The position numbers were made by a program, and so were the translations under genes. Below, piece by piece: positions 12,711 through 49,250 of a stretch of 64,000 nucleotides of DNA. Within the stretch, counting starts at the first letter, position 1; each line of letters starts with the position of its first letter. Below the pieces are notes generated by a model. It was not told where the DNA came from, searched no databases, and was given only the letters and a program-made list of their open reading frames with translations. The stretch comes from an uncultured Chloroflexia bacterium. GTDB lineage: Bacteria; Chloroflexota; Anaerolineae; B4-G1; SLSP01. The stretch lies in contig CAVVUS010000008.1 in the NCBI GenBank assembly GCA_963751345.1, positions 1 to 64,000 of the forward strand. Direction: 5' to 3'.

Positions 12711-12719
12711 CTCGTCCTC

Positions 12720-13648
12720 CTATCCTCCGGGTGTGATCGAGCCCGCTGCCATGAATGAGAAAATCAGGATATCCTGGATGACGTGGATGAACCACGCCCA
12801 GCCCAGGCCGCGCGTCTCGAGCATCGCCTTGCCGAGGATCCATCCCAGGAAACTCGACATGAGAACGCCGACGATGCCGTAGGGCACGCCGAAATAGTGG
12901 CCGATGCCAAAGAAGAGCGCGGCATTCCACAGCGCCTGCTGCGATCCGACGGCGGGCTCGAGCGTGGCGAGCATTGAGGCCCGGTAGGTCATCTCCTCGC
13001 TGAAGGCATTCATCACCGCGAAGAGCACGACCGCGGGCAGCATCGGCGCTGCGCGCACGAATGAGCCCCACGTCGGGCGCCCACCCACGATCAAGAAGAC
13101 CAAGCAGGCCCAGCCCGATGTAGATGCTGAACTGCCCACCGAACCGCGTCCACGGATCGGGTTTGGGAAAGCCCAGCAGAGGCACCGGTCGAATCGGTGC
13201 GTCCAACTTGCCCTTCGCAAGGAAAAAGCTCCTTCGCCGGTAGCCTAACGCAAGGAGGACGCCGATCATCATCAGCGTCACGATCAGGCGGCCCAGCTGT
13301 TCGCCCAGCATCGAGCGTGTGAAGGGTGCCCCCGCGCCCCCGAACCATCCCACCCACAGCGCAGATGAGGTGAGGCGCGAGACGAGCTGCTCTGCCAAGG
13401 ACATAGCCAGGAGGACCAGGATGTAGGGCCGCAGAGGACGCAGCGCGGCCCAGACAAGCGTCGCTGCACTGAGCGCGATCAGCAGTCCTGCCTTGGCCCA
13501 GATCAGCCACGAGGGCCTCCCGGCGCCCAGTTCGTACAGCAGCGCATTGGGCAGGACGCTGACGCACAGCATCGTAGTCCAGGCCGTCGCGACGACGAAA
13601 CTACGACTGCGATCGAGCTGCTCAGGTATGCGTTGTTGCGCTCAGCAT
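12720..13648 (-). CDS. CPBP/Abi intramembrane protease; frameshift ~13095
   Basis: NAFSEEMTYR, FGIGHY, FIHVIQD; N-terminal TM segments in the adjacent frame. Confidence 0.85.
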
Positions 13649-38671: not shown

Positions 38672-41209
38672 ATGAACATGCAACAGCTCCCCGGCACCTG
38701 ATCCCCTTCGACGCCGGCTCGGCATTCCTGACGACGCGAAGCACGTTCTGGTCTTCACCGAGTCGAGCCATTGGGATCCCAACTGGTTGCAGACGTCGAA
38801 GGCCTACTTCGATCGCTTTGTGCGCACCAACCTCGACCAGGCGATCGCAGCGCTGCAGGCGGAGCCACGGCGTGTCTACGGCGTGGAGTGCATGTTCTTC
38901 CTGCGGATGTACTGGGAGCGCTTCCCGGAACGGCGCGACGCCGTCCGGGCGCTGGTCAACGCCGGGCGGCTGCGACTCACCGGAAGTGGGGTGACGACCG
39001 CCGACACGCTATTGCCCAGCGCAGAGGCGCTTCTGCGCGACTTTCTGATCGGGCAGGAGTGGCTCCGCGCGAACGGGATGGACCAGACCCCGACGCTGGC
39101 CTACTTCACCGACAGCTTTGGTGCCTCGCCTATGTTGCCGTCGCTGCTGCGAGCGTCAGGCTTCGACCGCACGACGATCACGCGCGTCGATGGGATGGCC
39201 TTCATCGGCAGTGACCTGGAATCGTCGAAGCGCTTCCCGCGGCCCGGGTCGAGTGCCGAGCGTCTGCTGGAGAAGGAGCGTTCCCTCGACTTCGTCTGGC
39301 GCGACGGCAATGGTGCCGAGGTGCTCTGTCACTGGAATGCCTTCACTTACGGACAGGGCGATATGCTCGCGTATCGTGGCCTGAGCCGCGTCTACCTCGT
39401 CCGGTTCGCCTTCCCGGCACGATCCGACCGGCACGTTGCACGGCGTATCCGGCAGTATGTCGACGACCTTGCACCTCATAGCCGGACCCCGTATATGCTC
39501 TGCCCTATCGGCTTCGACTTTGTTGAGCCGATCCCTGATCTCGTCGAGCTTCTCGACCGGTACAACCGCAATCACTACGCAGACACCGGTGTGTGGGCGG
39601 TCAACGCCGGGCTGGACGATTATATGGCGCTCATCGAGCCCTTCCGGGATGCGCTGCCCGTGGTGGCGCTCGACCCGAACCCGTACTGGACGGGGTTCTA
39701 CGCCGCCAGGCCCGTCCTGAAGGCGCGATGCAGGAAGCTCGTGGATGACCTGGTGCTGGCGGAGCAGCTTTCGCTGGCGTCGGGTGACGTCATGGAGGCG
39801 CGCGGTGTATCGGAAGCGCTTGCGAGTGCGTGGTGGGCCGCGGTGACCTCCAACCACCACGACTTCATTACCGGCACCTCGCCCGACGAGGTCGTCGAGG
39901 AGGAGCAGCTCCCCTGGCTCGGCGAGGCGCAAGTCGAGGTGGATGCCGTGCTAGCGCGGCTTGGGGGCAGCGAGACGGCGCGGGCCGCCACTCGCGATGG
40001 CGATGCCATACGGGATGCCGGCGGGCCAGGTGCCGGGCACTCCGCCTCGGAAGGCGGAAAGTGCCAGGCACCGATGCTATCTGCGCGGAGCGGCACTCGT
40101 GGAGCCGGTGATCTGTCCTGGCGGATCGCGACCGGACGGCTCACCGTTGAGACCGCACACTACGTTGCCGAGCTGGACGAGACCGCCGGTGGGACCATCG
40201 TCAGCCTGCGCCTGCCCGGCATGGAGGCGTCACTCCTGGGTCCGGGCTCCAACGACCTCGTGACCTACCGTGATTCGGGTGGATTGTGGCGGATGGGGTA
40301 TGAGTTCCGGGGTGGGACCTGGCGGGTGGCGTCGCGGGCCAGCGACACGCGGACCGAGTTGCAGGTGCGCGAGGATGCGTGGCGTCCTGGAGGTGACGTC
40401 GCTTGTGTCGCTCCGGCGGCGAGATGCTGATGCGCCGCGTGTGGTTCGACCCTGCTTCGCCCGTGATCCGCTGCCGAGCGGAGGGCATCGCCCCCGAGGG
40501 GCATACCGTGACCGTCCGATTCGCCACCGGGTTGCCGGCCCAGGAGTTGGCGATGGATGCGCCGGGTGGTGTGGTCACGCGGCCTCTGACCAGGTATTAC
40601 GAGCCGACCTTCTGGCCTCTGCAGCACTTCGTCCATCTCCGAGACCCTCAGTCCGGGCGCGGGCTGGCCCTGATGCAGCGACTGCCGGGCGCCGTCAGCG
40701 TCCAACCTGATGGCAGCGTCGAGTTGGTGGCATTCCGCAACGCACAACACGAGGTCGCCTACGGCCTGATTGGCCTGCCTGCCTGCCCGGCGCACGGCCA
40801 CGAGCGGGAGCCGTATGGCTTTGACTATGCGCTCATCTTCACGGAGGCGGGCGACTGGCAGGCCAATGGCGTCGCCGAAGCGGTGCACGCTATGGTGAGC
40901 GGCGGGCCCTGGGACAGCGCCGATCGTCCGGTGCTGCGGCGCCTGGCCAGCAGTGTCGTCACGACCGACGCCGCGGGCGTGTGGGTGACGGCGGTGAAAC
41001 CGGCGTCACGGGGTGAGGGTGTCATCGTTCGGCTCGCCAGCTCTGCGGTGCCCACTACGCCGGTGACCATCACAGCGCACACGCTGCCGGTCGTGCGGGC
41101 CTTCCTCTGCGACGCTCGCGAGCGCGACCTTGCGCCCCTCGAGGTCGTGGACGGCACGATCCGCGTGGAGATGCACGGCACCATCGCCACGCTGCGGCTA
41201 CTGCCGTAG
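38672..41209 (+). CDS. GH38 alpha-mannosidase-like glycosidase; frameshifts ~38690 and ~40380-40425
   Basis: SSHWDPNW, TDSFG, YWTGFYAARP, NHHDFITGT, VKPA..GVIVRL. Confidence 0.82.
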
Positions 41210-42061: not shown

Positions 42062-45000
42062 CTAGGGTTCGATCGTGAACAGCGCCCCGTCGCTGCGTCC
42101 CCAGACCTCCGGGAAGTACATCTCGCTCGCCACGGCCGGGATGACCTGATAGGAGCCCGGAACTGCAGCCCGCAGGTAGTAGCGGATCTCGTAGGTGCCT
42201 GCCGCCAGGCGGGTGGCATAGAAGACCGCGCGCTCGTCACGTAACTCCTGGTGGTCGAAGGTCGGCCACCACCAGCCCTCACGATCCGATGTGAAGCTCG
42301 GCGCGGCTTCGCCGGGCGACGTGTTGAGCGTCGGGTCGACAGGTTCCATCCCCGCGGGGTAGAAGTCCTCCACCATAAGGTAGTAGCGCATCCGCGGGAT
42401 CACCAGCGTCAGGCGTACCTCGACGAGGTCGCCCGGGCGGACATGGGTCACCGGCGTGCACGCGTCAGGCGCGTCGCCACTCGCAGCGAAGGTCGGCACA
42501 CAGTAGGCGCGCTCCACGGTCACGCCGCGGGCCTCTGCCTGCAGCGACGCCGCCGGGCGGTAGATCGAGAGATCGGCCGTGTAGTAGAGAGTCCCGCTTC
42601 CCTCGCTGCGTGAGATCTCCAGCGCATTGGGCCACGCCGAGGAGAGTTCCGTCAGTGGAATCACGTGCTCGACCGTCTGCGTGAGGTTATCCGCCGAGAC
42701 GGTGCCCTGGTCGAGGGGTTCGGTGTTGAGGGCCACGCCCCAGTCGTAGCTCCCCTGGAGCTCGCCGGTGGCGCGCGCGGTGTCCATCAGCGCCATCACG
42801 GCCCACGCCGTCTCCTGCGTGGTCTCCCAGTGATCGTCCTTGCGGGCGACCATGAGCCAGCGCGCGGCCTGGGGCACGAGAGGATCGTCAGGGGCGAGGC
42901 GCGCGAGCGCGTCCAGCACCACCGAGGTCGCGCGGGTCCACGTGACCCACAGATCCGCCGCCGCACTCTCCCAGTGTGCACCCGAAGCCGTAATGCCGGC
43001 ATCGGTGCGCAGGCTGTCGAGGAGCGTCGTGAGCCGCGGGTCCTCGGGGTTGTTCAGCCCGATCGCCAGCGCCAGGTAGGCGCGTCCGGTGACCTCAAGG
43101 GTCTCGCGGGCATCGTAGAGGGCCGCATCGGCGCCATTGGGCCACACACGCCCGGACTCAGCCAGGACGTAGAGCGCGAATGCCTGTGGCAGCTGCGCCT
43201 CGGACGGCGTACGCGCCTCGGACGGCGTAGCGCCTCAGACTGCAGTCCGCGCGAGAGGCTGCCCGAGAGGTAGTCGAGGGCGGCGTTGAGGGGCTGCTGG
43301 TCGACCGCGAAGCCGGCCCGCTGGGCCTGCAGCAGACCCAGGGCAGCATAGGCGCTGGTCTGGAACTCGCTCGATGTATTACCCCACCATCCCCAGCCGC
43401 CATCGGCGTTCTGGCGATCGTAGAGCTCGGTCAGGGTCTCGGTCACAAGCGTGCGAAGCTGGGCTTCGAGCCCGGCGTCGTGCCGGCCCAGCTCCTGGAG
43501 CGCCCGGTAGGTCACGACGTTGGGCAGGAAGCGGCTGACGAGCTGCTCCGTACACTGATAGGGAAAGCTCTCCAGGTAATCGAGGCTATCCACCACGCCC
43601 GCAGCCAGTGTCGGCGCCAGGCGCACCGTCAAGGTGCTGGCGGGGCCTGCATCCGCCGGGACGGTGATGACCTCCACACGCGACCCGCCTTCGGTCAGTG
43701 TGCCAGACGTCGCGACCCTATCGGGCGTCTCGTAGCGGTAGATGGGCAGGGCCCGGTCACCTTCGCGCCCCACGCTCGGGCGGGCGGCGTCGCGGTAGCC
43801 GCTGCCTGCTGCGGAGAAGGTCAGGAGCGCAGCATCCAGGCCGGTCTCGGGCACACTGACACGCCAACTGACCCGCGCGCGGCCTTGCGCGGGGATGGAG
43901 ACCTGCTGCACGGCATCGCCGGCAAGGTCCAGATCGGTCTCCAGCGCCACCTGTACGTCCAGCGCCGCGGACGTGTTATTGTTGACCACGGCGGCAACGT
44001 CGGCGCTGTCTCCGGCGATGAAGAAGCGCGGGGTCACAGGGCGCACCAGCAGCGGCTTGGTCACGACGAGCTCCGCCGTGGTCGCACCGACCTGCGTCGC
44101 CTCGGTCACGGCGCGGGCGTCCACGACCCAGGTGGTGAGCGAGTCGGGCAGATCCACCGTCACGGTCGTCTCACCGTTCGGCCCCGTCTTGAGATGGGCT
44201 TTCCAGAGCGCCGTGTCGGGGAAGTCCTGCCGGACATCGGGCGCGAAGATGGCGCCATCACCGCCGCCACCTCCGATGCCGCCGATCATCCGCTCCATTG
44301 CCTCCTGTTCGGCGCGCTTCTGGAGCGCCTCCAGATCTGATGTGAGGCGGTTCTGCAGGACCAGCAGGCCATCACCGGTCGCGATACCCAGCGGTCGCCG
44401 GGCGTAGAAGGCCTCGAGGAGCGTCGGAGCGTTGTCGTCAGCCAGAGCCAACACGGCCTTGTCCACGACGGCCAGTGCCACCTCGGCGTCGACGGGTTGG
44501 CCAGCGGCGTCGAGCGCGCGGACGGTGACCTGCGCCGGATCGCCCGGAGCATAGGTGCAGCGCCCGCCGGCGTCACGCTCCTCCGCGGCGCACACCGGCG
44601 TCACGGTGACGTCCAGGGTCTGCCGCACGGGCTCGACCGTCAGCTCGACCATGCCCAGCCGCACGTCAGGTGTAGCCTGGTCCGCGTCCACGCCTTTGAC
44701 GACGGCAAAGTTGACCACGATGTTAGGAACATGGGCCTCTGTGATGGGTACGTCGATGACGGGATTCGCCTCGCGCACCGTGAGATGCTTGACCTCCAGG
44801 ATGGTGCCCCGCTCGATGGTCATCAGGACCTCGAATGGCCCACTGAAGGGTGTCGATAGCAGGATATGGGCGACGTCGCCAGGGCGGTAGCTCTCTGCAT
44901 CGGCGACGGGCTCGACCTTACCCTCGCCCAACTGCCAGGCTGCGGTCTGCGGGCCGCCGACCCACAGATAGGTCTCGCTGCGCGCCGTGTTCCCGTTGGC

Positions 45001-48000
45001 ATCGGTCGACTCGACCTGCACCACGTACGAACCACTGGTCGGTGGCGTGAACGTGAGGGTGGCTGTGCCCGTACCGTCAGTCGTGACGTTGAGCGTGTCG
45101 ACGACGGTATCCTTGTGGGTCCACGTCCCCGATGCGAAGGGCTTGGTGGGCGAGACATAGGTCCACGTCCGCCGCGCCAGGGTGGCGCGCACGTGCTGGT
45201 CAGCCACCGGCTGCTCGTCCCAGTCCAGGGCCAGCAGGTCGACGAGGGCGGGCTTGCCCGCGGTAGAGACCCACGATTGGGGCTTGAGCCCGAGATAGAA
45301 ACGGCTCGTGTGCACGGTGAGGCTGCCGCTCTGGGTCACAGGGAAGCCCGTGTCGTCGGTGACCGTGGCCTCCACCTCCCAGCGCTGGGGGCCGACCGTA
45401 TCCTGGTCTGACAGCGGCGCGAGATCGAGCGGCAACGTCATGACGAGGCGGCCCTCTGCGTCCGTAACGCCGTCTCCCTCTGCAACGACCTCCGGCTCGC
45501 GCCAGGGCTCCCAGGACATCGTGTTGGCACCCCACTGCCACCAGCCGGAGACGTCGGGACTGAAGCTGTAGGGGCCGGCGCGAACCGTCCAGTGCACCGG
45601 TGCCTTGCTCACGCCGCCACCGCTGTAATAGCTCGCCTGGATGGCCACATGGGCCATCTCGCCATCGAGTTGGTCCGCCTGCTCGGGTACCACGGTGACC
45701 TCGAACTCGGGCTTACGGTAGGCGGCGACCGCGATCTGGATGCCGGCGATCTCCGGCGTTCCCTCACCGGTGCGCAGCGAAAGGCTGTAGGAGCCCAACT
45801 GCGCATCGGCCGGCAGGTCGAAGGCCCCATCGAAGGTGCCTGCGTCAGAGACGACGGCCTCGACGGTGTCGGTCCCATTGTCGCTCCACGACGTCAGCGC
45901 GACCTGGACCCCCATGCCCGGTTCGGGAAGGCTGTACCGGCCGTCATCGTCGTTGCGCAGGATGCCCCGGAAGTAGACGGTCTGTCCGGGCCGGTAGATG
46001 GGCCGGTCGGTCTGCAGATAGCCGCGATAGGCCGGAGGCTGGCTGTAGTCGTAGGTCACGCCAAAAGCCCAGGGGGCGACGTCGTAGTTCCAGTCGCTGC
46101 GGGCGATCCCGAAACCCGCCTGCCCCGGCTCGCCGGCGACGGCGGTGTAGGCCTCCCAGCGATCGCTCTGTGTGGGGATGGCGAGCCGGGCGATGCCGTC
46201 CGCATCACTGAGGCCGCGGCCAAGGAGGGTGCCGCTCGTTGAGAGTACCCGCACGGAGGCACCGGCGACCGGCTCTGCCGTGCGCAAGTCGGTCACCCAG
46301 ACCAGGGCCTCGTCGGGCCCAACCTTGAGCAGAACGTGCAGGTCGACCACGGCGACGCGCAGTCGCTCGGCCTGGCTGTTGGTCGAACCCGGCGTGCGCC
46401 ACATCACGCCGTAGAAGCCGGTGGGCAGCGCCTCGCCGTTCGCCAGTTGGACCGGGACGGCGGCTGTCCTGTTGAGCTGCCCGTCCGGGCTCACGGCGAC
46501 CTGCCGGCTCGATTGGAGCGACCAGTTGCCCTGGTATCCAAGGAAGTCACGCTCCTGCAGCGTGCCCACGTCCAGCGTAAGCTGCTGCACGTTGACCGCG
46601 GTGAAGTAGACCTCGGCGGGCGAGGCGCCGTCGAGCGTGAGCGTGTCATAGCGAGCCACCGGGGCGAAGATCGGCGGCGCGTTGTCGACGGTGAAGCAGG
46701 CCTGCGCCTCGCCGGTAAGCGTGTTGCCGTAGCGATCCGCCAGGCCCGGCAGCACGGTGACACAGTAGCGTACGCCGGCCTTCTTATCCCAGCTGACCCA
46801 AGCGCCCGGCTGGTCGCTGTAGGCGTCCCAGTAGACGTTGGCGTCAACGGTTCCCGCCCCTTCCTCGGTGACCCTCACCTTGTCCGTCGTCGTCGCAGGA
46901 TCGAGGAGACCCTCCAACTTGATCTGGACGCTCTCGTAGTAGGCAAGGCGCCCTGTCTTGGCGTCTGAGCCGGGGGAGATCTGCGCCACCCGCAGTGCCG
47001 GCACCGTGGTGAAGTCGGACTGCCGGCCTGCGGCGAGAACGCCGCCGTCAAGAGAGCGTGCTGTGGTGTCGATCTCGACTTCATAGGTCGTCTCCGGCGT
47101 CAGGAGCGTCGTGGGCGTGAAGACGAGCGTGGCCCCGGCGTCCTCCCAGCCGAAGCCGCCCGTGATCGGGCCATCGGGTACGCTCGACATCGAGAACGCG
47201 GCTTCGGTGGCTTCGGGGGCCATCGGCGTGTTGAAGGTCACCCGGACGGCGCCCTCCAGCGGGCACATTCTCGCGTGCCGTTGAAGGGCGAGACGTGCTG
47301 GACGCGCGGCTCGCTCGTGGAGAAGCTGATGCTGACCGGCGCCTCCAGTGCCGCCCCGCCGGCGGCCGAGACAGTCGTCGACAGGGCGACGGTATAGTGC
47401 GTGCCGGCACTCCAGGCAGGCGTCGGGTCAAAGCGATAGACGCTGCTGTTGACCCACATTCCCTGTCCCGAGACCGGTGGTGTGATCTCCAGAGGCAGCG
47501 GCGCGCACGAACCGCCGGACGTGGCGGCCTGTCCCGTGCAGTTCACGGGCACGACGGGGTAGTTGAAGGCCAGCAGCAAGGGGGTGTCACCGCGGAGGTC
47601 AACGGCGCCGGCGGAGGGGGTCGTGTGAGTCACCTCCAGCGGACCGACGGTGCTGAACGCGAAGGCCATCTCGCCGGTTAGCGACGTGCCGCCGGTGCTC
47701 TGCGCGTCCTGGCCGAGTGCCACCCGGTAACGCGTCGCCGAGGCCAGGACCTTGGGCTGGAAGGTGACCGTCTCGTCATCGTGCCAGGTGAAAGTTCCGG
47801 TCACAGCAGGCGTAACGGTGAGCGCCCGCTCCACACTCGCGCGATCCATCGGCTGGGTGAAGCGCAGCAGAATGCCCGCCTGCAGCGTCACCTCCTCGCC
47901 GTTACCGGGCATCGCGGTGACGACGGCAGGCGGAAGCCCGGCGACGTACGGCGGCTCGGTGGGCACCGGCGTGGGTACGGGCGGTGTCACCGTATCTGGT

Positions 48001-48433
48001 ACTTGCGTCTCCAATACGGCCGTGCCGCCAACCTGGGTCGTGGGCGTTCCAGCCGCCGGCACGCCTCCGGACGTCGGCTCCGCCGGCAGCGGATGGGCCG
48101 GCATGCCTGTGGGGAGCGACCGGACGATAAGTGCAACGGCCAGCAGGAGAGCCACAGCGCCCCCGGCCCACGCGAACCATAGCCTGCGGGGTGGGGCGGC
48201 TCGTTGAGGGATGCCGGCTCATGCGTGCGTGCCGCAACCGGACGGCGAGACGCTCGACAAAGGAAGGGGATGGATGGATGCGCCCTGCACTGCGCCGTAA
48301 CGCCTCCTCGACCTCCGCTGTGGGGTCTGACCCTGCCTGCAGGCCGTCGCCGATTTCTGCGTCTTCGCCCCTCTTGGGGCTCTTGTCCTTTTCCGAACCC
48401 CGGCTCTTCTCCGGGCTAGTCAGCTGTCTTCAT
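42062..48433 (-). CDS. Membrane-anchored alpha-2-macroglobulin with N-terminal cytoplasmic domain and Ig-like repeats; frameshifts ~48430, ~48200, ~47265, ~43230
   Basis: TDRPIYRPGQTV (MG2), VDKAVLAL, DVRQDFPDTALW, LPDSLTTW, FPYQCTEQ thioester, QNADGGWGWW, WETTQETAWA, EMYFPEVWGRS; TM WAGGAVALLLAVALIV. Confidence 0.88.
43195..43240. repeat. 18-bp tandem repeat inside the A2M gene
   Basis: GCGCCTCGGACGGCGTA(C) x2 plus a partial third copy. Confidence 0.8.
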
Positions 48434-49001
48434 CGACACACCTCTTCCTCAAGTCGGCTATTGCGCGTGAGACCAACATCTTCACTGCGGCGACGCTGCG
48501 CCCCATAGCGCGCGCCACGTCGTTCAGGGCCAGATCTCCCCAGTACCGAAGCTGCACCGCTTCACGCCGGTCGTCGCTCAGTTGTTGGAGCATCCGCTCT
48601 ACACAGCTCAGCACATCTCTGTGCCCGGCCAGGGCCTCCGGCCCGGGTCCGGTGCCTGCCTGTGTGGGCGCTACATCGTCCCAGGAGACCGTCGGACGGG
48701 CATATGCCGCGCGGTGGAAGTCCATACACTTGTGCCGCGCGATGCCGAACAGCCATCCCAGAAACGCGCTCCTCCGCCGGTACCGGGGCAGGGCCTCAAG
48801 CGCAGCCAAGAATGTCTGCGTTGTGAGGTCCTCTGCATCGTCCGCCGTGTTCGTGCGGGCGTAGCAGTACCGGTAGACCGCCGTGACGTGGCGCCGGTAG
48901 AGCGTCTCGAAAGCCACGTGGTCGTTGACAGCCAGCTCGGCCAGCCGGTCGTCGTCGAGCTCAGCATACGTGCTCGCCGATCCCGTGGACGGCTCGTCCA
49001 T
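48420..49001 (-). CDS. ECF sigma-70 factor
   Basis: AFETLYRRH...VYRY, DAEDLTTQTF, WLFGIARH; region 4 LSDDRREAVQLRY...VKMLVSRA; start uncertain. Confidence 0.93.
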   Translation of the reverse strand: MDEPSTGSASTYAELDDDRLAELAVNDHVAFETLYRRHVTAVYRYCYARTNTADDAEDLTTQTFLAALEALPRYRRRSAFLGWLFGIARHKCMDFHRAAYARPTVSWDDVAPTQAGTGPGPEALAGHRDVLSCVERMLQQLSDDRREAVQLRYWGDLALNDVARAMGRSVAAVKMLVSRAIADLRKRCVDEDS

Positions 49002-49250
49002 AGGCCATGATGCAGACTCGGGTGCAGAAGCAGATTCCGGCACAGGTATCCTCTCAGCGCTGAGGGCCCTTCGTGAATGACGTTCACCCTGAATGTCGTG
49101 GTTTGGGGAAGAAGGTAACAGGCAATCTACCAGGGACCGCGGGATTCGCAAGGCCAACGCCTTGCCCTGAGGCGAGCAAGATCCGCCGCATGCAGCAGGT
49201 TTGGTGTACAATGACGCCGGGTCAACGAACATATATCATCTGGAGTCTGA

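What the first reader, a model, noticed from the sequence alone, without database searches (positions are those of the whole stretch)
42062..49001. ECF sigma factor coupled to a putative anti-sigma/alpha-2-macroglobulin fusion: a possible protease-trap sensor
Seen: the 3' end of the ECF sigma gene overlaps an ATG at 48433. One base out of register, a frame reads RQLTSPEK...EVEEALRRSAGRIHPSPSFVERLAVRLR. After a further indel come a basic patch and one TM helix (RRLWFAWAGGAVALLLAVALIV), a Pro/Thr linker, about four Ig-like repeats and a complete bacterial A2M (MG2, Gly-rich bait region GGIGGGGGDG, intact CTEQ thioester, C-terminal domain), ~2,100 aa in total. There is no lipobox and no pbpC gene nearby. 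Known: characterised bacterial A2Ms such as E. coli YfhM are lipoproteins, often encoded with PBP1C, that trap proteases after bait cleavage and change conformation. ECF anti-sigmas are typically encoded just downstream of the sigma, with a small cytoplasmic N-terminal domain, one TM and an extracytoplasmic sensor. Inference: this A2M occupies the anti-sigma position and topology, so bait cleavage by a foreign protease could release the sigma factor. I know of no description of such a system but could not search for one.
Basis: partly seen in the sequence, partly recalled or inferred. Interest (0 to 1): 0.85.

Follow-up and report, generated by a model that had tools for sequence, protein, structure and literature searches.

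The report
Protease-trap protein fused to anti-sigma module
A stress-response sigma factor gene is coupled to a giant membrane-anchored protease-trap protein whose short inner tail looks built to hold that sigma factor, which suggests these bacteria switch on genes when a foreign protease attacks the trap.

Summary
On the minus strand an ECF sigma gene (48420-49001) overlaps the ATG (48433) of a ~2,120-aa gene. That gene encodes a two-helix cytoplasmic module, one TM helix, a Pro/Thr linker, Big_5 Ig-like repeats and a complete thioester (CTEQ) alpha-2-macroglobulin. In the window it is broken at four sites by five single-base indels. These are most likely assembly errors: the genome's own rpoB is also split, a 98%-identical protein reads through three of the sites, and contigs from other samples lack the extra bases. 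Intact 2,060-2,150-aa orthologs occur in at least seven genera of one Anaerolineae family. All 32 sigma-ortholog loci examined carry the module directly downstream, fused either to an A2M or, in other lineages, to unrelated ectodomains. That pattern is typical of anti-sigma factors. A complex prediction scored 0.86 against 0.00 for the best control, with the invariant residues at the interface. All ten sigma genes checked have a TGTTAC-N16/17-CGAC promoter upstream. The anti-sigma role is well supported (~0.8). That protease attack on the A2M is the trigger remains inference. Three full-text searches found no description of such a system. I rate it a new variant of a known kind.

The parts
49095..49121 (-). 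ECF-type promoter-like site CTGTTAC-N16-CGAC, 93 nt upstream of the proposed sigma start
   Evidence: TGTTAC-N16-CGAC (N17 in one locus) lies upstream of the sigma gene in 10 of 10 orthologous loci. The own genome has only 3 strict sites, against about 7 expected from base composition.
48420..49001 (-). ECF sigma factor gene (193 aa from MDEPSTG; the start codon was not verified)
   Evidence: Pfam Sigma70_r2 at 3e-15 and Sigma70_r4_2 at 2e-11. The ortholog passes NCBIfam TIGR02937 sigma70-ECF (85.9 bits, cut-off 42.9). Orthologs were found in 33 of 145 genomes of the order.
42062..48433 (-). One gene of about 2,120 aa (module, TM helix, linker, Big_5 repeats, A2M), broken here by five single-base indels at four sites
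   Evidence: Intact orthologs: 2,080 aa in G010 and ten open frames of 2,063-2,154 aa in other genera.
48226..48315 (-). Conserved core of the cytoplasmic two-helix module (EVEEALRRSAGRIHPSPSFVERLAVRLRHA), the proposed anti-sigma domain
   Evidence: Invariant L, I, P, F, R, L, R, L positions in alignment A1. AlphaFold2 predicts helices 13-27 and 34-50 in the G010 ortholog. In the predicted complex the interface is residues 16-50. No Pfam family matches.
48123..48182 (-). Single transmembrane helix LWFAWAGGAVALLLAVALIV, preceded by the basic patch RAAPPRR
   Evidence: Read directly from the sequence. Conserved in orthologs. The N-in topology is inferred from the basic patch.
47934..48122 (-). 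Pro/Thr/Ala-rich linker between the TM helix and the first Ig-like domain
   Evidence: composition judged by eye.
47005..47933 (-). Three detectable Big_5 Ig-like domains (3-4 in orthologs)
   Evidence: Pfam PF13205 hits in two frames and in orthologs.
43942..46344 (-). Macroglobulin body: bMG3, MG2, bMG6, A2M_BRD and A2M domains
   Evidence: Pfam.
44254..44283 (-).
   Evidence: Position. Conserved in G010 and P0007. The bait role was not tested.
43543..43554 (-). Thioester motif CTEQ in the TED domain
   Evidence: CTEQ is present in 13 of 14 sigma-linked members where the site is visible.
42107..42526 (-). bMG10 C-terminal domain
   Evidence: Pfam PF17973 at 2e-28.
48421..48421 (-). Break 1: one extra base compared with the continuous reading MKTATSPEK of P0005
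48211..48213 (-). Break 2: one extra base (plus a substitution) compared with P0005, which reads RHARMSRTPQRAAPPRR
47260..47273 (-). Break 3: two extra single bases within 13 nt
   Evidence: Contigs from 3 runs of 3 studies each lack two single bases in this stretch. P0005 reads through it.
43229..43230 (-). Break 4: one base missing in the first copy of an 18-nt tandem repeat (GAGGCGCGTACGCCGTCC)
   Evidence: A contig from run X2 replaces 40 nt here with 8 nt, which restores the frame.

Best explanation
This is a two-gene operon encoding an ECF sigma factor and its membrane anti-sigma factor. The extracytoplasmic sensor domain of the anti-sigma is a complete thioester-type bacterial alpha-2-macroglobulin.

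Shown by the sequence and searches:
- The two genes overlap.
- The pair is conserved.
- The A2M is complete.
- The frameshifts in the window are absent from relatives.

Predicted or inferred from conservation:
- The ~50-residue cytoplasmic module forms two helices. Helix 2 lies on sigma region 2 and helix 1 on region 4, which would keep the sigma off RNA polymerase.
- The sigma drives its own operon from the TGTTAC-N16-CGAC promoter.

Inferred only:
- A foreign protease that attacks the exposed ectodomain starts stepwise destruction of the anti-sigma. The attack could be on the A2M bait, followed by trapping and conformational change, or on the Pro/Thr linker.
- A site-2 protease (M50 homologs are present in the genome) then finishes the job and releases the sigma.
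- Sigma release re-induces the operon, which replenishes the trap, and possibly induces envelope genes.

The breaks in this window are assembly errors, not gene decay.
For: 1. Gene structure. The A2M start ATG overlaps the end of the sigma gene in the window. In the intact G010 ortholog the overlap is 8 nt.
2. Co-occurrence. 30 of the 30 best sigma-ortholog loci in the order, plus 2 further loci, have the module directly downstream on the same strand. That is 32 of 32 examined; 9 weaker matches were not examined. Of 70 A2M-paralog N-terminal loci from 40 relatives, only 5 have a sigma upstream. Four of those five show the module; the fifth, G003:C76, is N-masked there and shows it.
3. One module, different ectodomains. 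Among the 32 loci, 23 have an A2M/Big_5 ectodomain, 6 have an unrelated ~800-940-aa ectodomain with no Pfam family, 1 has a small ectodomain (352-aa protein) and 2 are cut by contig ends. A more distant pair in G121 has a 262-aa partner.
4. Complex prediction. G010 sigma plus residues 1-60 of its partner scored ipSAE 0.86, 0.86 and 0.85, against 0.00 for the best of 3 controls. Partner pLDDT was 73-74 and the runs agreed in at least 73% of contacts. The tool's pass mark was reached by 58 of 80 solved complexes and 2 of 110 mismatched pairs. The interface covers partner residues 16-50, which include all invariant positions, and sigma residues 18-61, 124-153 and 178-186.
5. Module fold. Two helices are predicted, at 13-27 and 34-50.
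6. Promoter. A conserved promoter-like site lies upstream of 10 of 10 sigma genes.
7. A2M completeness. All A2M domains are present, and CTEQ is kept in 13 of 14 members where the site is visible.
8. The breaks are artefacts. The genome's own rpoB is split into two frames, and the GH38 gene in the window is split. P0005 is 98% identical and reads through breaks 1-3. Contigs of 3 studies lack the two extra bases at break 3, and one contig restores the frame at break 4.
9. Site-2 protease. M50 protease homologs are present in the genome.
Against: - No experiment was done. Binding is a model score obtained with my own shallow alignments (10 and 13 rows), so the tool's calibration holds only roughly.
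- The module has no detectable sequence similarity to any known anti-sigma domain. There is no Pfam hit above cut-off, and a PDB profile search returned only acyl carrier protein and CheW noise.
- Nothing links bait cleavage to signalling. The module also works with non-A2M ectodomains, and one intact member (P0007) has STEQ in place of CTEQ.
- Indel density in this gene is higher than in rpoB plus rpoC: 5 in 6.4 kb against 1 in about 8 kb. No contig bridged breaks 1 and 2. Decay in this particular strain is therefore not excluded.
- The promoter pattern is not enriched genome-wide over a reversed control in 41 genomes, so no regulon is established.
Confidence: 0.55

Rival explanations
1. The pair is a sigma/anti-sigma pair, but the A2M is only the effector. 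It would be a membrane-tethered protease trap whose amount is tied to sigma activity, and the signal that releases the sigma would be something else: general envelope stress, linker or TM proteolysis by a host site-1 protease, or a cytoplasmic cue. Trapping by the A2M would play no part in signalling.
For: The same module regulates through unrelated ectodomains. P0007 lacks the thioester cysteine. Two cysteines of the sigma itself are nearly invariant (C84 and C185), so a cytoplasmic redox or metal input is conceivable.
Against: The ectodomain of an anti-sigma factor is normally its sensor. CTEQ and the full domain set are kept in 13 of 14 members where the site is visible, across at least seven genera. 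Each genome also has lipoprotein A2M paralogs that could serve as plain effectors, so an extra sigma-tethered copy suggests a distinct role.
Confidence: 0.25
2. There is no anti-sigma function. The N-terminal segment would be only a signal anchor with a conserved cytoplasmic tail, and the A2M would be a co-transcribed target gene of the sigma.
For: No known anti-sigma family matches the module. The domain is very short, at about 35 conserved residues.
Against: The module is found only next to this sigma clade (32 of 32 loci) and on three unrelated ectodomain types. Its invariant residues all lie in a confidently predicted interface with sigma regions 2 and 4 (0.86 against 0.00). The 55 other paralog N-termini examined use ordinary signal or lipoprotein-like leaders and have no such tail.
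Confidence: 0.1
3. In this particular genome the gene is a true pseudogene that is decaying through frameshifts, even though the family is functional elsewhere.
For: There are five indels in 6.4 kb, a higher density than in rpoB plus rpoC. Breaks 1 and 2 were not bridged by any independent contig.
Against: Essential rpoB is also frameshifted. The GH38 gene and three other A2M paralogs are broken too. The window is 98% identical in protein to P0005 over 910 residues, with no stops inside the frames. Relatives in 3 studies lack the break-3 insertions.
Confidence: 0.12

Closest known systems
Type I bacterial alpha-2-macroglobulins (E. coli ECAM/YfhM, Salmonella Sa-A2M)
   Same: The MG-domain array, bait-region domain, CXEQ thioester in a TED domain and MG10 domain are all present. 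The features of Type I are taken from passages of PMC5764988.
   Different: It is anchored by an N-terminal TM helix carrying a cytoplasmic module, not by a lipobox. It is encoded with an ECF sigma, not with PBP1c. It has 3-4 extra N-terminal Big_5 domains, although the lipoprotein paralogs of these genomes share those.
[quoted passage not shown]
   Same: It is a short two-helix cytoplasmic domain. In the prediction the first helix contacts sigma region 4 and the second contacts regions 2.1/2.2. This is the binding mode described for CnrY in passages of PMC7406223.
   Different: No sequence similarity was detected. CnrY is a small protein, whereas this module carries about 2,000 extracytoplasmic residues. 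The closest solved relative of the sigma is 6dxo, not CnrH.
RsiV / sigma-V (lysozyme receptor anti-sigma factor)
   Same: The logic is the same: the anti-sigma ectodomain would directly bind the hostile enzyme, and that would start regulated proteolysis and release of the sigma. My source is search listings and the starts of abstracts only (PMC5014341, PMC4183432).
   Different: The ligand here would be a protease, not lysozyme. The sensor is a 13-domain covalent trap, not a small binding domain. Nothing about it has been tested experimentally.
Class I anti-sigma factors (RseA, RsiW, RskA, ChrR; zf-HC2)
   Same: The gene sits just downstream of its ECF sigma. The protein is single-pass, with an N-in cytoplasmic sigma-binding part and a variable ectodomain.
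   Different: Class I domains have four helices, often with an Hx3Cx2C motif (PMC7406223). Here only two helices are predicted, there is no Cys or His motif, and there is no zf-HC2 hit.

Membership tests
ECF (group 4) sigma-70 factors | Only regions sigma-2 and sigma-4 are present, and the protein matches the ECF profile | tested here: met
   Pfam Sigma70_r2 and Sigma70_r4_2 are the only domains. The ortholog scores 85.9 bits on TIGR02937, cut-off 42.9. The best PDB relatives are all ECF sigmas.
ECF (group 4) sigma-70 factors | Assignment to a named ECF group (ECF Hub classification) | not testable with these tools
   No ECF-group library was available. The nearest NCBIfam model is the BldN family, at 94.8 bits against a cut-off of 206. 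The supplements of PMC7826278 are closed.
Type I bacterial alpha-2-macroglobulin | MG domains, bait-region domain, TED and MG10 | tested here: met
   Pfam bMG3, MG2, bMG6, A2M_BRD, A2M, TED_complement and bMG10 are found in the window pieces and in three intact orthologs.
Type I bacterial alpha-2-macroglobulin | CXEQ thioester motif | tested here: met
   CTEQ lies at 43543-43554. It is present in 13 of 14 sigma-linked members where the site is visible.
Type I bacterial alpha-2-macroglobulin | Lipoprotein signal peptide (lipobox) as anchor | tested here: not met
   The N-terminus is a ~70-residue cytoplasmic segment followed by a TM helix, and no Cys follows the helix. Most paralogs do have lipobox-like leaders; this was judged by eye.
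Type I bacterial alpha-2-macroglobulin | Operon with the peptidoglycan synthase PBP1c | tested here: not met
   No Transgly-domain match lies on the window's contig, and none was found among the 8 neighbouring ORFs. A lipoprotein paralog on contig C30 does lie about 3.4 kb from a Transgly gene.
Type I bacterial alpha-2-macroglobulin | Protease trapping after bait cleavage | not testable with these tools
   This needs biochemistry.
Class I anti-sigma domain (ASDI / zf-HC2) | Four-helix N-terminal domain, often with Hx3Cx2C | tested here: not met
   Only two helices are predicted. There is no zf-HC2 or other Pfam hit, and the module has no Cys or His motif.
Class II anti-sigma domain (CnrY-like) | Two helices, helix 1 on sigma-4 and helix 2 on sigma-2 | tested here: inconclusive
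   The predicted fold and contacts fit this mode. They are model output only, and no sequence similarity to any solved anti-sigma was found.
ECF anti-sigma factors in general | Encoded next to and co-transcribed with the cognate sigma, with the pairing conserved | tested here: met
   The genes overlap. The pairing holds in 32 of 32 loci examined.
ECF anti-sigma factors in general | Physically binds and inhibits the sigma | tested here: inconclusive
   The complex prediction scored 0.86 against 0.00 for the best control. No experiment was done.

The most novel reading that the evidence does not exclude
Covalent capture of a foreign protease by a thioester alpha-2-macroglobulin is itself the signal. 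Bait cleavage and the resulting collapse of the A2M cage expose the membrane-proximal part of the same polypeptide to regulated proteolysis. This frees an ECF sigma that rebuilds the trap and hardens the envelope. It would be a bacterial 'sense by being attacked' receptor, and a single-molecule link between complement-like thioester chemistry and transcription.
Probability: 0.35. Interest if true: 0.85.

Novelty: new variant of a known kind. Interest (0 to 1): 0.72.

Why it matters
Bacterial alpha-2-macroglobulins have been treated as passive shields, and what they do in non-pathogens is largely unknown. A conserved fusion of a complete thioester A2M to a sigma-binding module would give them a signalling role. 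It would add "hostile protease" to the short list of enemy enzymes that anti-sigma factors sense directly; lysozyme via RsiV is the known case. It also defines a minimal two-helix anti-sigma module with no sequence relatives among known classes. Because the module, the sigma and the promoter are small and well defined, the idea can be tested directly in a heterologous host. The sigma, anti-sigma and promoter set could also be useful as an orthogonal genetic switch.

Tried and rejected
- Pfam and NCBIfam on the N-terminal 100 aa found only a sub-threshold DUF3040 hit (17.6 bits, cut-off 24.7). I rejected it.
- Word-index protein search with the 83-aa N-terminus against longer proteins (147-2000 aa) found none. 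With P0001 region 1-90 it found only P0001 itself. Both searches are limited by length windows and by the need for shared words.
- A profile search of 1.84 billion representative proteins gave 12 hits at E<=0.001. Nine (P0003-P0011) are real module bearers, mostly fragments. P0012-P0014 look like repeat or low-complexity chance hits.
- A class-wide genome search with the module profile gave 8 weak hits (E 8e-4 to 8e-3). Of the three I opened, only G121 had an adjacent sigma; L094 and L099 did not and I treat them as chance.
- Regulon hunt. The strict motif occurs 3 times in the own genome, and the pattern is not above a reversed control in 41 genomes. Candidate targets are single observations, not a regulon: an L,D-transpeptidase on C18, a secreted protein in G003/G020, and other small sigma genes.
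- Programmed frameshifting was rejected, because relatives have single open frames.
- The careful phylogeny did not finish within the time limit. Only the quick tree (SH-aLRT support) is reported.
- The look-up of sequencing runs listed no RNA holder. All 12 runs hold small shares (<=0.18) of the stretch, so I draw no conclusion about habitat or expression.
- Read laying found no contig bridging breaks 1 and 2.
- Literature. There were 0 papers with anti-sigma + alpha-2-macroglobulin + ECF. There were 2 irrelevant papers with macroglobulin + anti-sigma factor + extracytoplasmic function. There were 0 with macroglobulin + sigma factor + regulated intramembrane proteolysis. The main text of PMC7826278 contains neither 'macroglobulin' nor 'Chloroflexi'. 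Its supplementary tables were closed and could list such a gene context.
Full report
**What is in the window**

On the minus strand, five open pieces lie head to tail.
- 48420-49235: an ECF sigma, with Pfam Sigma70_r2 and r4_2.
- 47902-48429: RQLTSPEK...EVEEALRRSAGRIHPSPSFVERLAVRLRHA, with no Pfam family.
- 47238-48218: RRLWFAWAGGAVALLLAVALIV, a Pro/Thr linker and two Big_5 domains.
- 43054-47427: Big_5, bMG3, MG2, bMG6, A2M_BRD, A2M and TED. The thioester site reads FPYQCTEQ.
- 42062-43234: bMG10.

An ATG at 48431-48433 overlaps the last codons of the sigma gene. Read through, the gene is about 2,120 aa. The only correction is that there are four break sites with five single-base indels, not two indels.

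**The breaks are most likely assembly errors**

- The window belongs to a 49-contig, 5.4-Mb genome (93% complete). Its other A2M paralogs are also fragmented.
- The essential rpoB gene of this genome is split between two frames; rpoC is whole.
- The GH38 mannosidase gene at 38787-41209 is split into two ORFs.
- P0005, from the 1.84-billion-protein library, is 98% identical over 910 residues. It reads continuously through breaks 1-3 (MKTATSPEK......RHARMSRTPQRAAPPRRLWF......VSPFNGTENVPLEGAVRV...) but has a break of its own further on.
- Contigs from three runs of three studies each lack two single bases within 47260-47272. One contig replaces 40 nt at break 4 with 8 nt, which restores the frame.
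- No contig bridged breaks 1 and 2, and indel density here is higher than in rpoBC. I therefore leave about 0.12 for real decay in this strain.

**Relatives show the intact gene and a conserved pairing**

The best ortholog (G010) is a single 2,080-aa ORF. It starts MRKRNEDLNKTEPNDEVEEALKRSATKINPDPDFIERLSVRLRHAH...RRIPWLAWAGAAVAIILVVAG, and its ATG overlaps the upstream ECF sigma gene by 8 nt.

I fetched the N-terminal regions of 70 A2M paralogs from 40 relatives.
- Nine loci were cut by contig ends before the N-terminus.
- Five have an ECF sigma upstream (phmmer E 1e-55 to 6e-76). Four of the five show the cytoplasmic extension. The fifth, G003:C76, is N-masked there and shows it.
- A sixth ortholog, in G007, ends at a contig edge.
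- The other 55 start with an ordinary signal or lipoprotein-like leader (judged by eye) and gave no sigma hit within about 3 kb.

A quick tree of the first Ig region places the 8 sigma-linked rows in one group (SH-aLRT 98) nested among the lipoprotein forms. Rows with masked residues or shorter than 190 aa, and three rows without an anchor motif, were dropped. The careful tree search did not finish.

**Order-wide search starting from the sigma**

- 33 of 145 genomes have an ortholog at E<=1e-35, giving 41 matches.
- In all 30 best loci, the module is encoded immediately downstream on the same strand. Two more loci that I fetched also have it. Nine weaker matches were not examined.
- Ectodomains among the 32 loci: 23 A2M/Big_5 type (family f1, at least seven genera); 6 of an unrelated ~800-940-aa type with no Pfam family (family f2); 1 small (352-aa protein); 2 cut by contig ends.
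- A more distant pair in another family (G121) has a 262-aa partner.
- Ten further A2M-type genes are intact frames of 2,063-2,154 aa, all with CTEQ. Three that I scanned have the full Pfam domain set.
- CTEQ is present in 13 of 14 sigma-linked members where the site is visible. P0007 (2,099 aa) has STEQ.

A conserved N-terminal module on interchangeable ectodomains, always beside one sigma clade, is the classic signature of an anti-sigma factor.

**The module**

- Conserved core: [VI]-E-x-A-L-x-x-x-A-x-x-[IV]-x-P-x-x-x-F-[VI]-x-R-L-x-x-x-L-R. Positions L21, I28, P30, F34, R37, L38, R41 and L42 are invariant in the five closest sequences.
- AlphaFold2 predicts two helices, at 13-27 and 34-50 (mean pLDDT 74).
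- It matches no Pfam family and no solved anti-sigma sequence.
- It is rare in public data: 12 hits at E<=0.001 in 1.84 billion representatives, 9 of them genuine.

**Predicted binding**

I folded the G010 sigma (188 aa, 10-row alignment) with residues 1-60 of its partner (13-row alignment).
- ipSAE was 0.86, 0.86 and 0.85; the best of three controls scored 0.00.
- Partner pLDDT was 73-74, and the runs agreed in at least 73% of contacts.
- The tool's pass mark was reached by 58 of 80 solved complexes and 2 of 110 mismatched pairs. That calibration holds only roughly with my own alignments.
- Partner residues 16-50 touch sigma residues 18-61 (region 2) and 124-153 and 178-186 (region 4). Helix 2 lies on region 2 and helix 1 on region 4.

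This is the dual-interface mode described for anti-sigma factors, and in two-helix form for the class II factor CnrY (passages of PMC7406223). It supports binding but does not show it.

**Promoter**

Upstream of all 10 sigma genes I aligned lies TGTTAC-N16-CGAC (N17 in G121). In the window it is at 49095-49121. This fits an autoregulated ECF operon. No regulon could be established.
- The own genome has 3 strict sites, and the pattern is not above a reversed control across 41 genomes.
- One extended match lies upstream of a TM + SH3b + YkuD L,D-transpeptidase on contig C18.
- Similar sites precede other small sigma genes and a secreted protein in relatives.

**Mechanism**

- Shown: gene overlap, conserved pairing, a complete thioester A2M, and frames that are intact in relatives.
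- Predicted: two-helix module binding to sigma regions 2 and 4, and autoregulation.
- Inferred: the ectodomain faces outward, because of the basic patch before the TM helix. A foreign protease that cuts the A2M bait or the Pro/Thr linker starts stepwise proteolysis. A site-2 protease (M50 homologs are present) completes it. The sigma is released and the operon is re-induced.

The nearest precedent in logic is RsiV, the anti-sigma factor that is a lysozyme receptor (titles and starts of abstracts of PMC5014341 and PMC4183432). Type I bacterial A2Ms carry a CXEQ thioester, are encoded with PBP1c, and in E. coli (ECAM) are anchored to the inner membrane (passages of PMC5764988). Here the anchor is a TM helix, the partner gene is a sigma, and no PBP gene lies on the contig.

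**Novelty**

Three full-text searches found no paper linking macroglobulins with anti-sigma factors. The ECF reclassification paper does not mention macroglobulin or Chloroflexi in its main text; its supplements were closed. I file this as a new variant of a known kind: an ECF sigma/anti-sigma pair with a new minimal anti-sigma module and an unprecedented sensor domain.

Confidence:
- about 0.8 that the module is an anti-sigma domain;
- about 0.55 for the whole model, including protease attack as the trigger;
- about 0.35 for the stricter reading that thioester trapping itself is the signal.

Noticed in passing
window 38787-41209 (+): A GH38 alpha-mannosidase is split into two overlapping ORFs (547 aa and 268 aa, both with GH38 domains). 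This is another probable assembly frameshift in the window.
   Followed up: partly
G000 contig C10:143888-147659: The genome's own rpoB is split between two reading frames near 145965, while rpoC is intact. The assembly therefore carries indel errors in essential genes.
   Followed up: yes
window 43195-43240 (-): An 18-nt tandem repeat (about 2.7 copies, encoding EARTPS) is inserted in the TED domain relative to G010. Several unrelated metagenome contigs match only this ~35-45-nt stretch and diverge on both sides, so it may be a short dispersed repeat.
   Followed up: no
sigma alignment A3 (window 48420-49001 and orthologs): The sigma clade carries conserved cysteines in the motifs YRYC, HKC, DCV and a C-terminal RKRC. 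C84 and C185 are nearly invariant, and residues 185-186 lie in the predicted interface. A metal or redox site in the sigma itself is possible.
   Followed up: no
G000 contig C18:73404-73430 (-): This is the only other strong match to the sigma promoter in the own genome (CCTGTTACCTTC...GCGAC). It lies 37 nt upstream of a 316-aa protein with a TM helix, an SH3b-like domain and a YkuD L,D-transpeptidase domain. The domains were judged by eye, not by Pfam.
   Followed up: partly
G000 contig C30:4586-9308 and 12713-13231 (-): A lipoprotein-type A2M paralog lies about 3.4 kb from a Transgly-domain (class A PBP) gene. The classical A2M-PBP linkage seems to be kept by a paralog, while the sigma-linked copy lacks it.
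   Followed up: no
P0007 (2,099 aa, from the representative library): This is an intact sigma-module A2M in which the thioester cysteine is replaced (HESTEQ). It may be a Type II-like derivative within the sigma-linked clade.
   Followed up: partly
L102:756-3143, L103:744-3275, L180, L181: In a sister family, the same module and sigma are joined to a conserved ~800-940-aa ectodomain (LPPLPRLV..., C-terminal ...VWVFYGH...FTAYVQAV). It matches no Pfam family; only one member (L103) gave a sub-threshold DUF5818 hit. It is an uncharacterised sensor domain.
   Followed up: partly
L136 (G010:C22) and L133 (G019:C43): Small sigma-like genes (152-168 aa) are preceded by the same CTGTTAC-N16-CGACAT motif. 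This suggests either cross-regulation or a shared promoter type among several ECF-like sigmas in these genomes.
   Followed up: no
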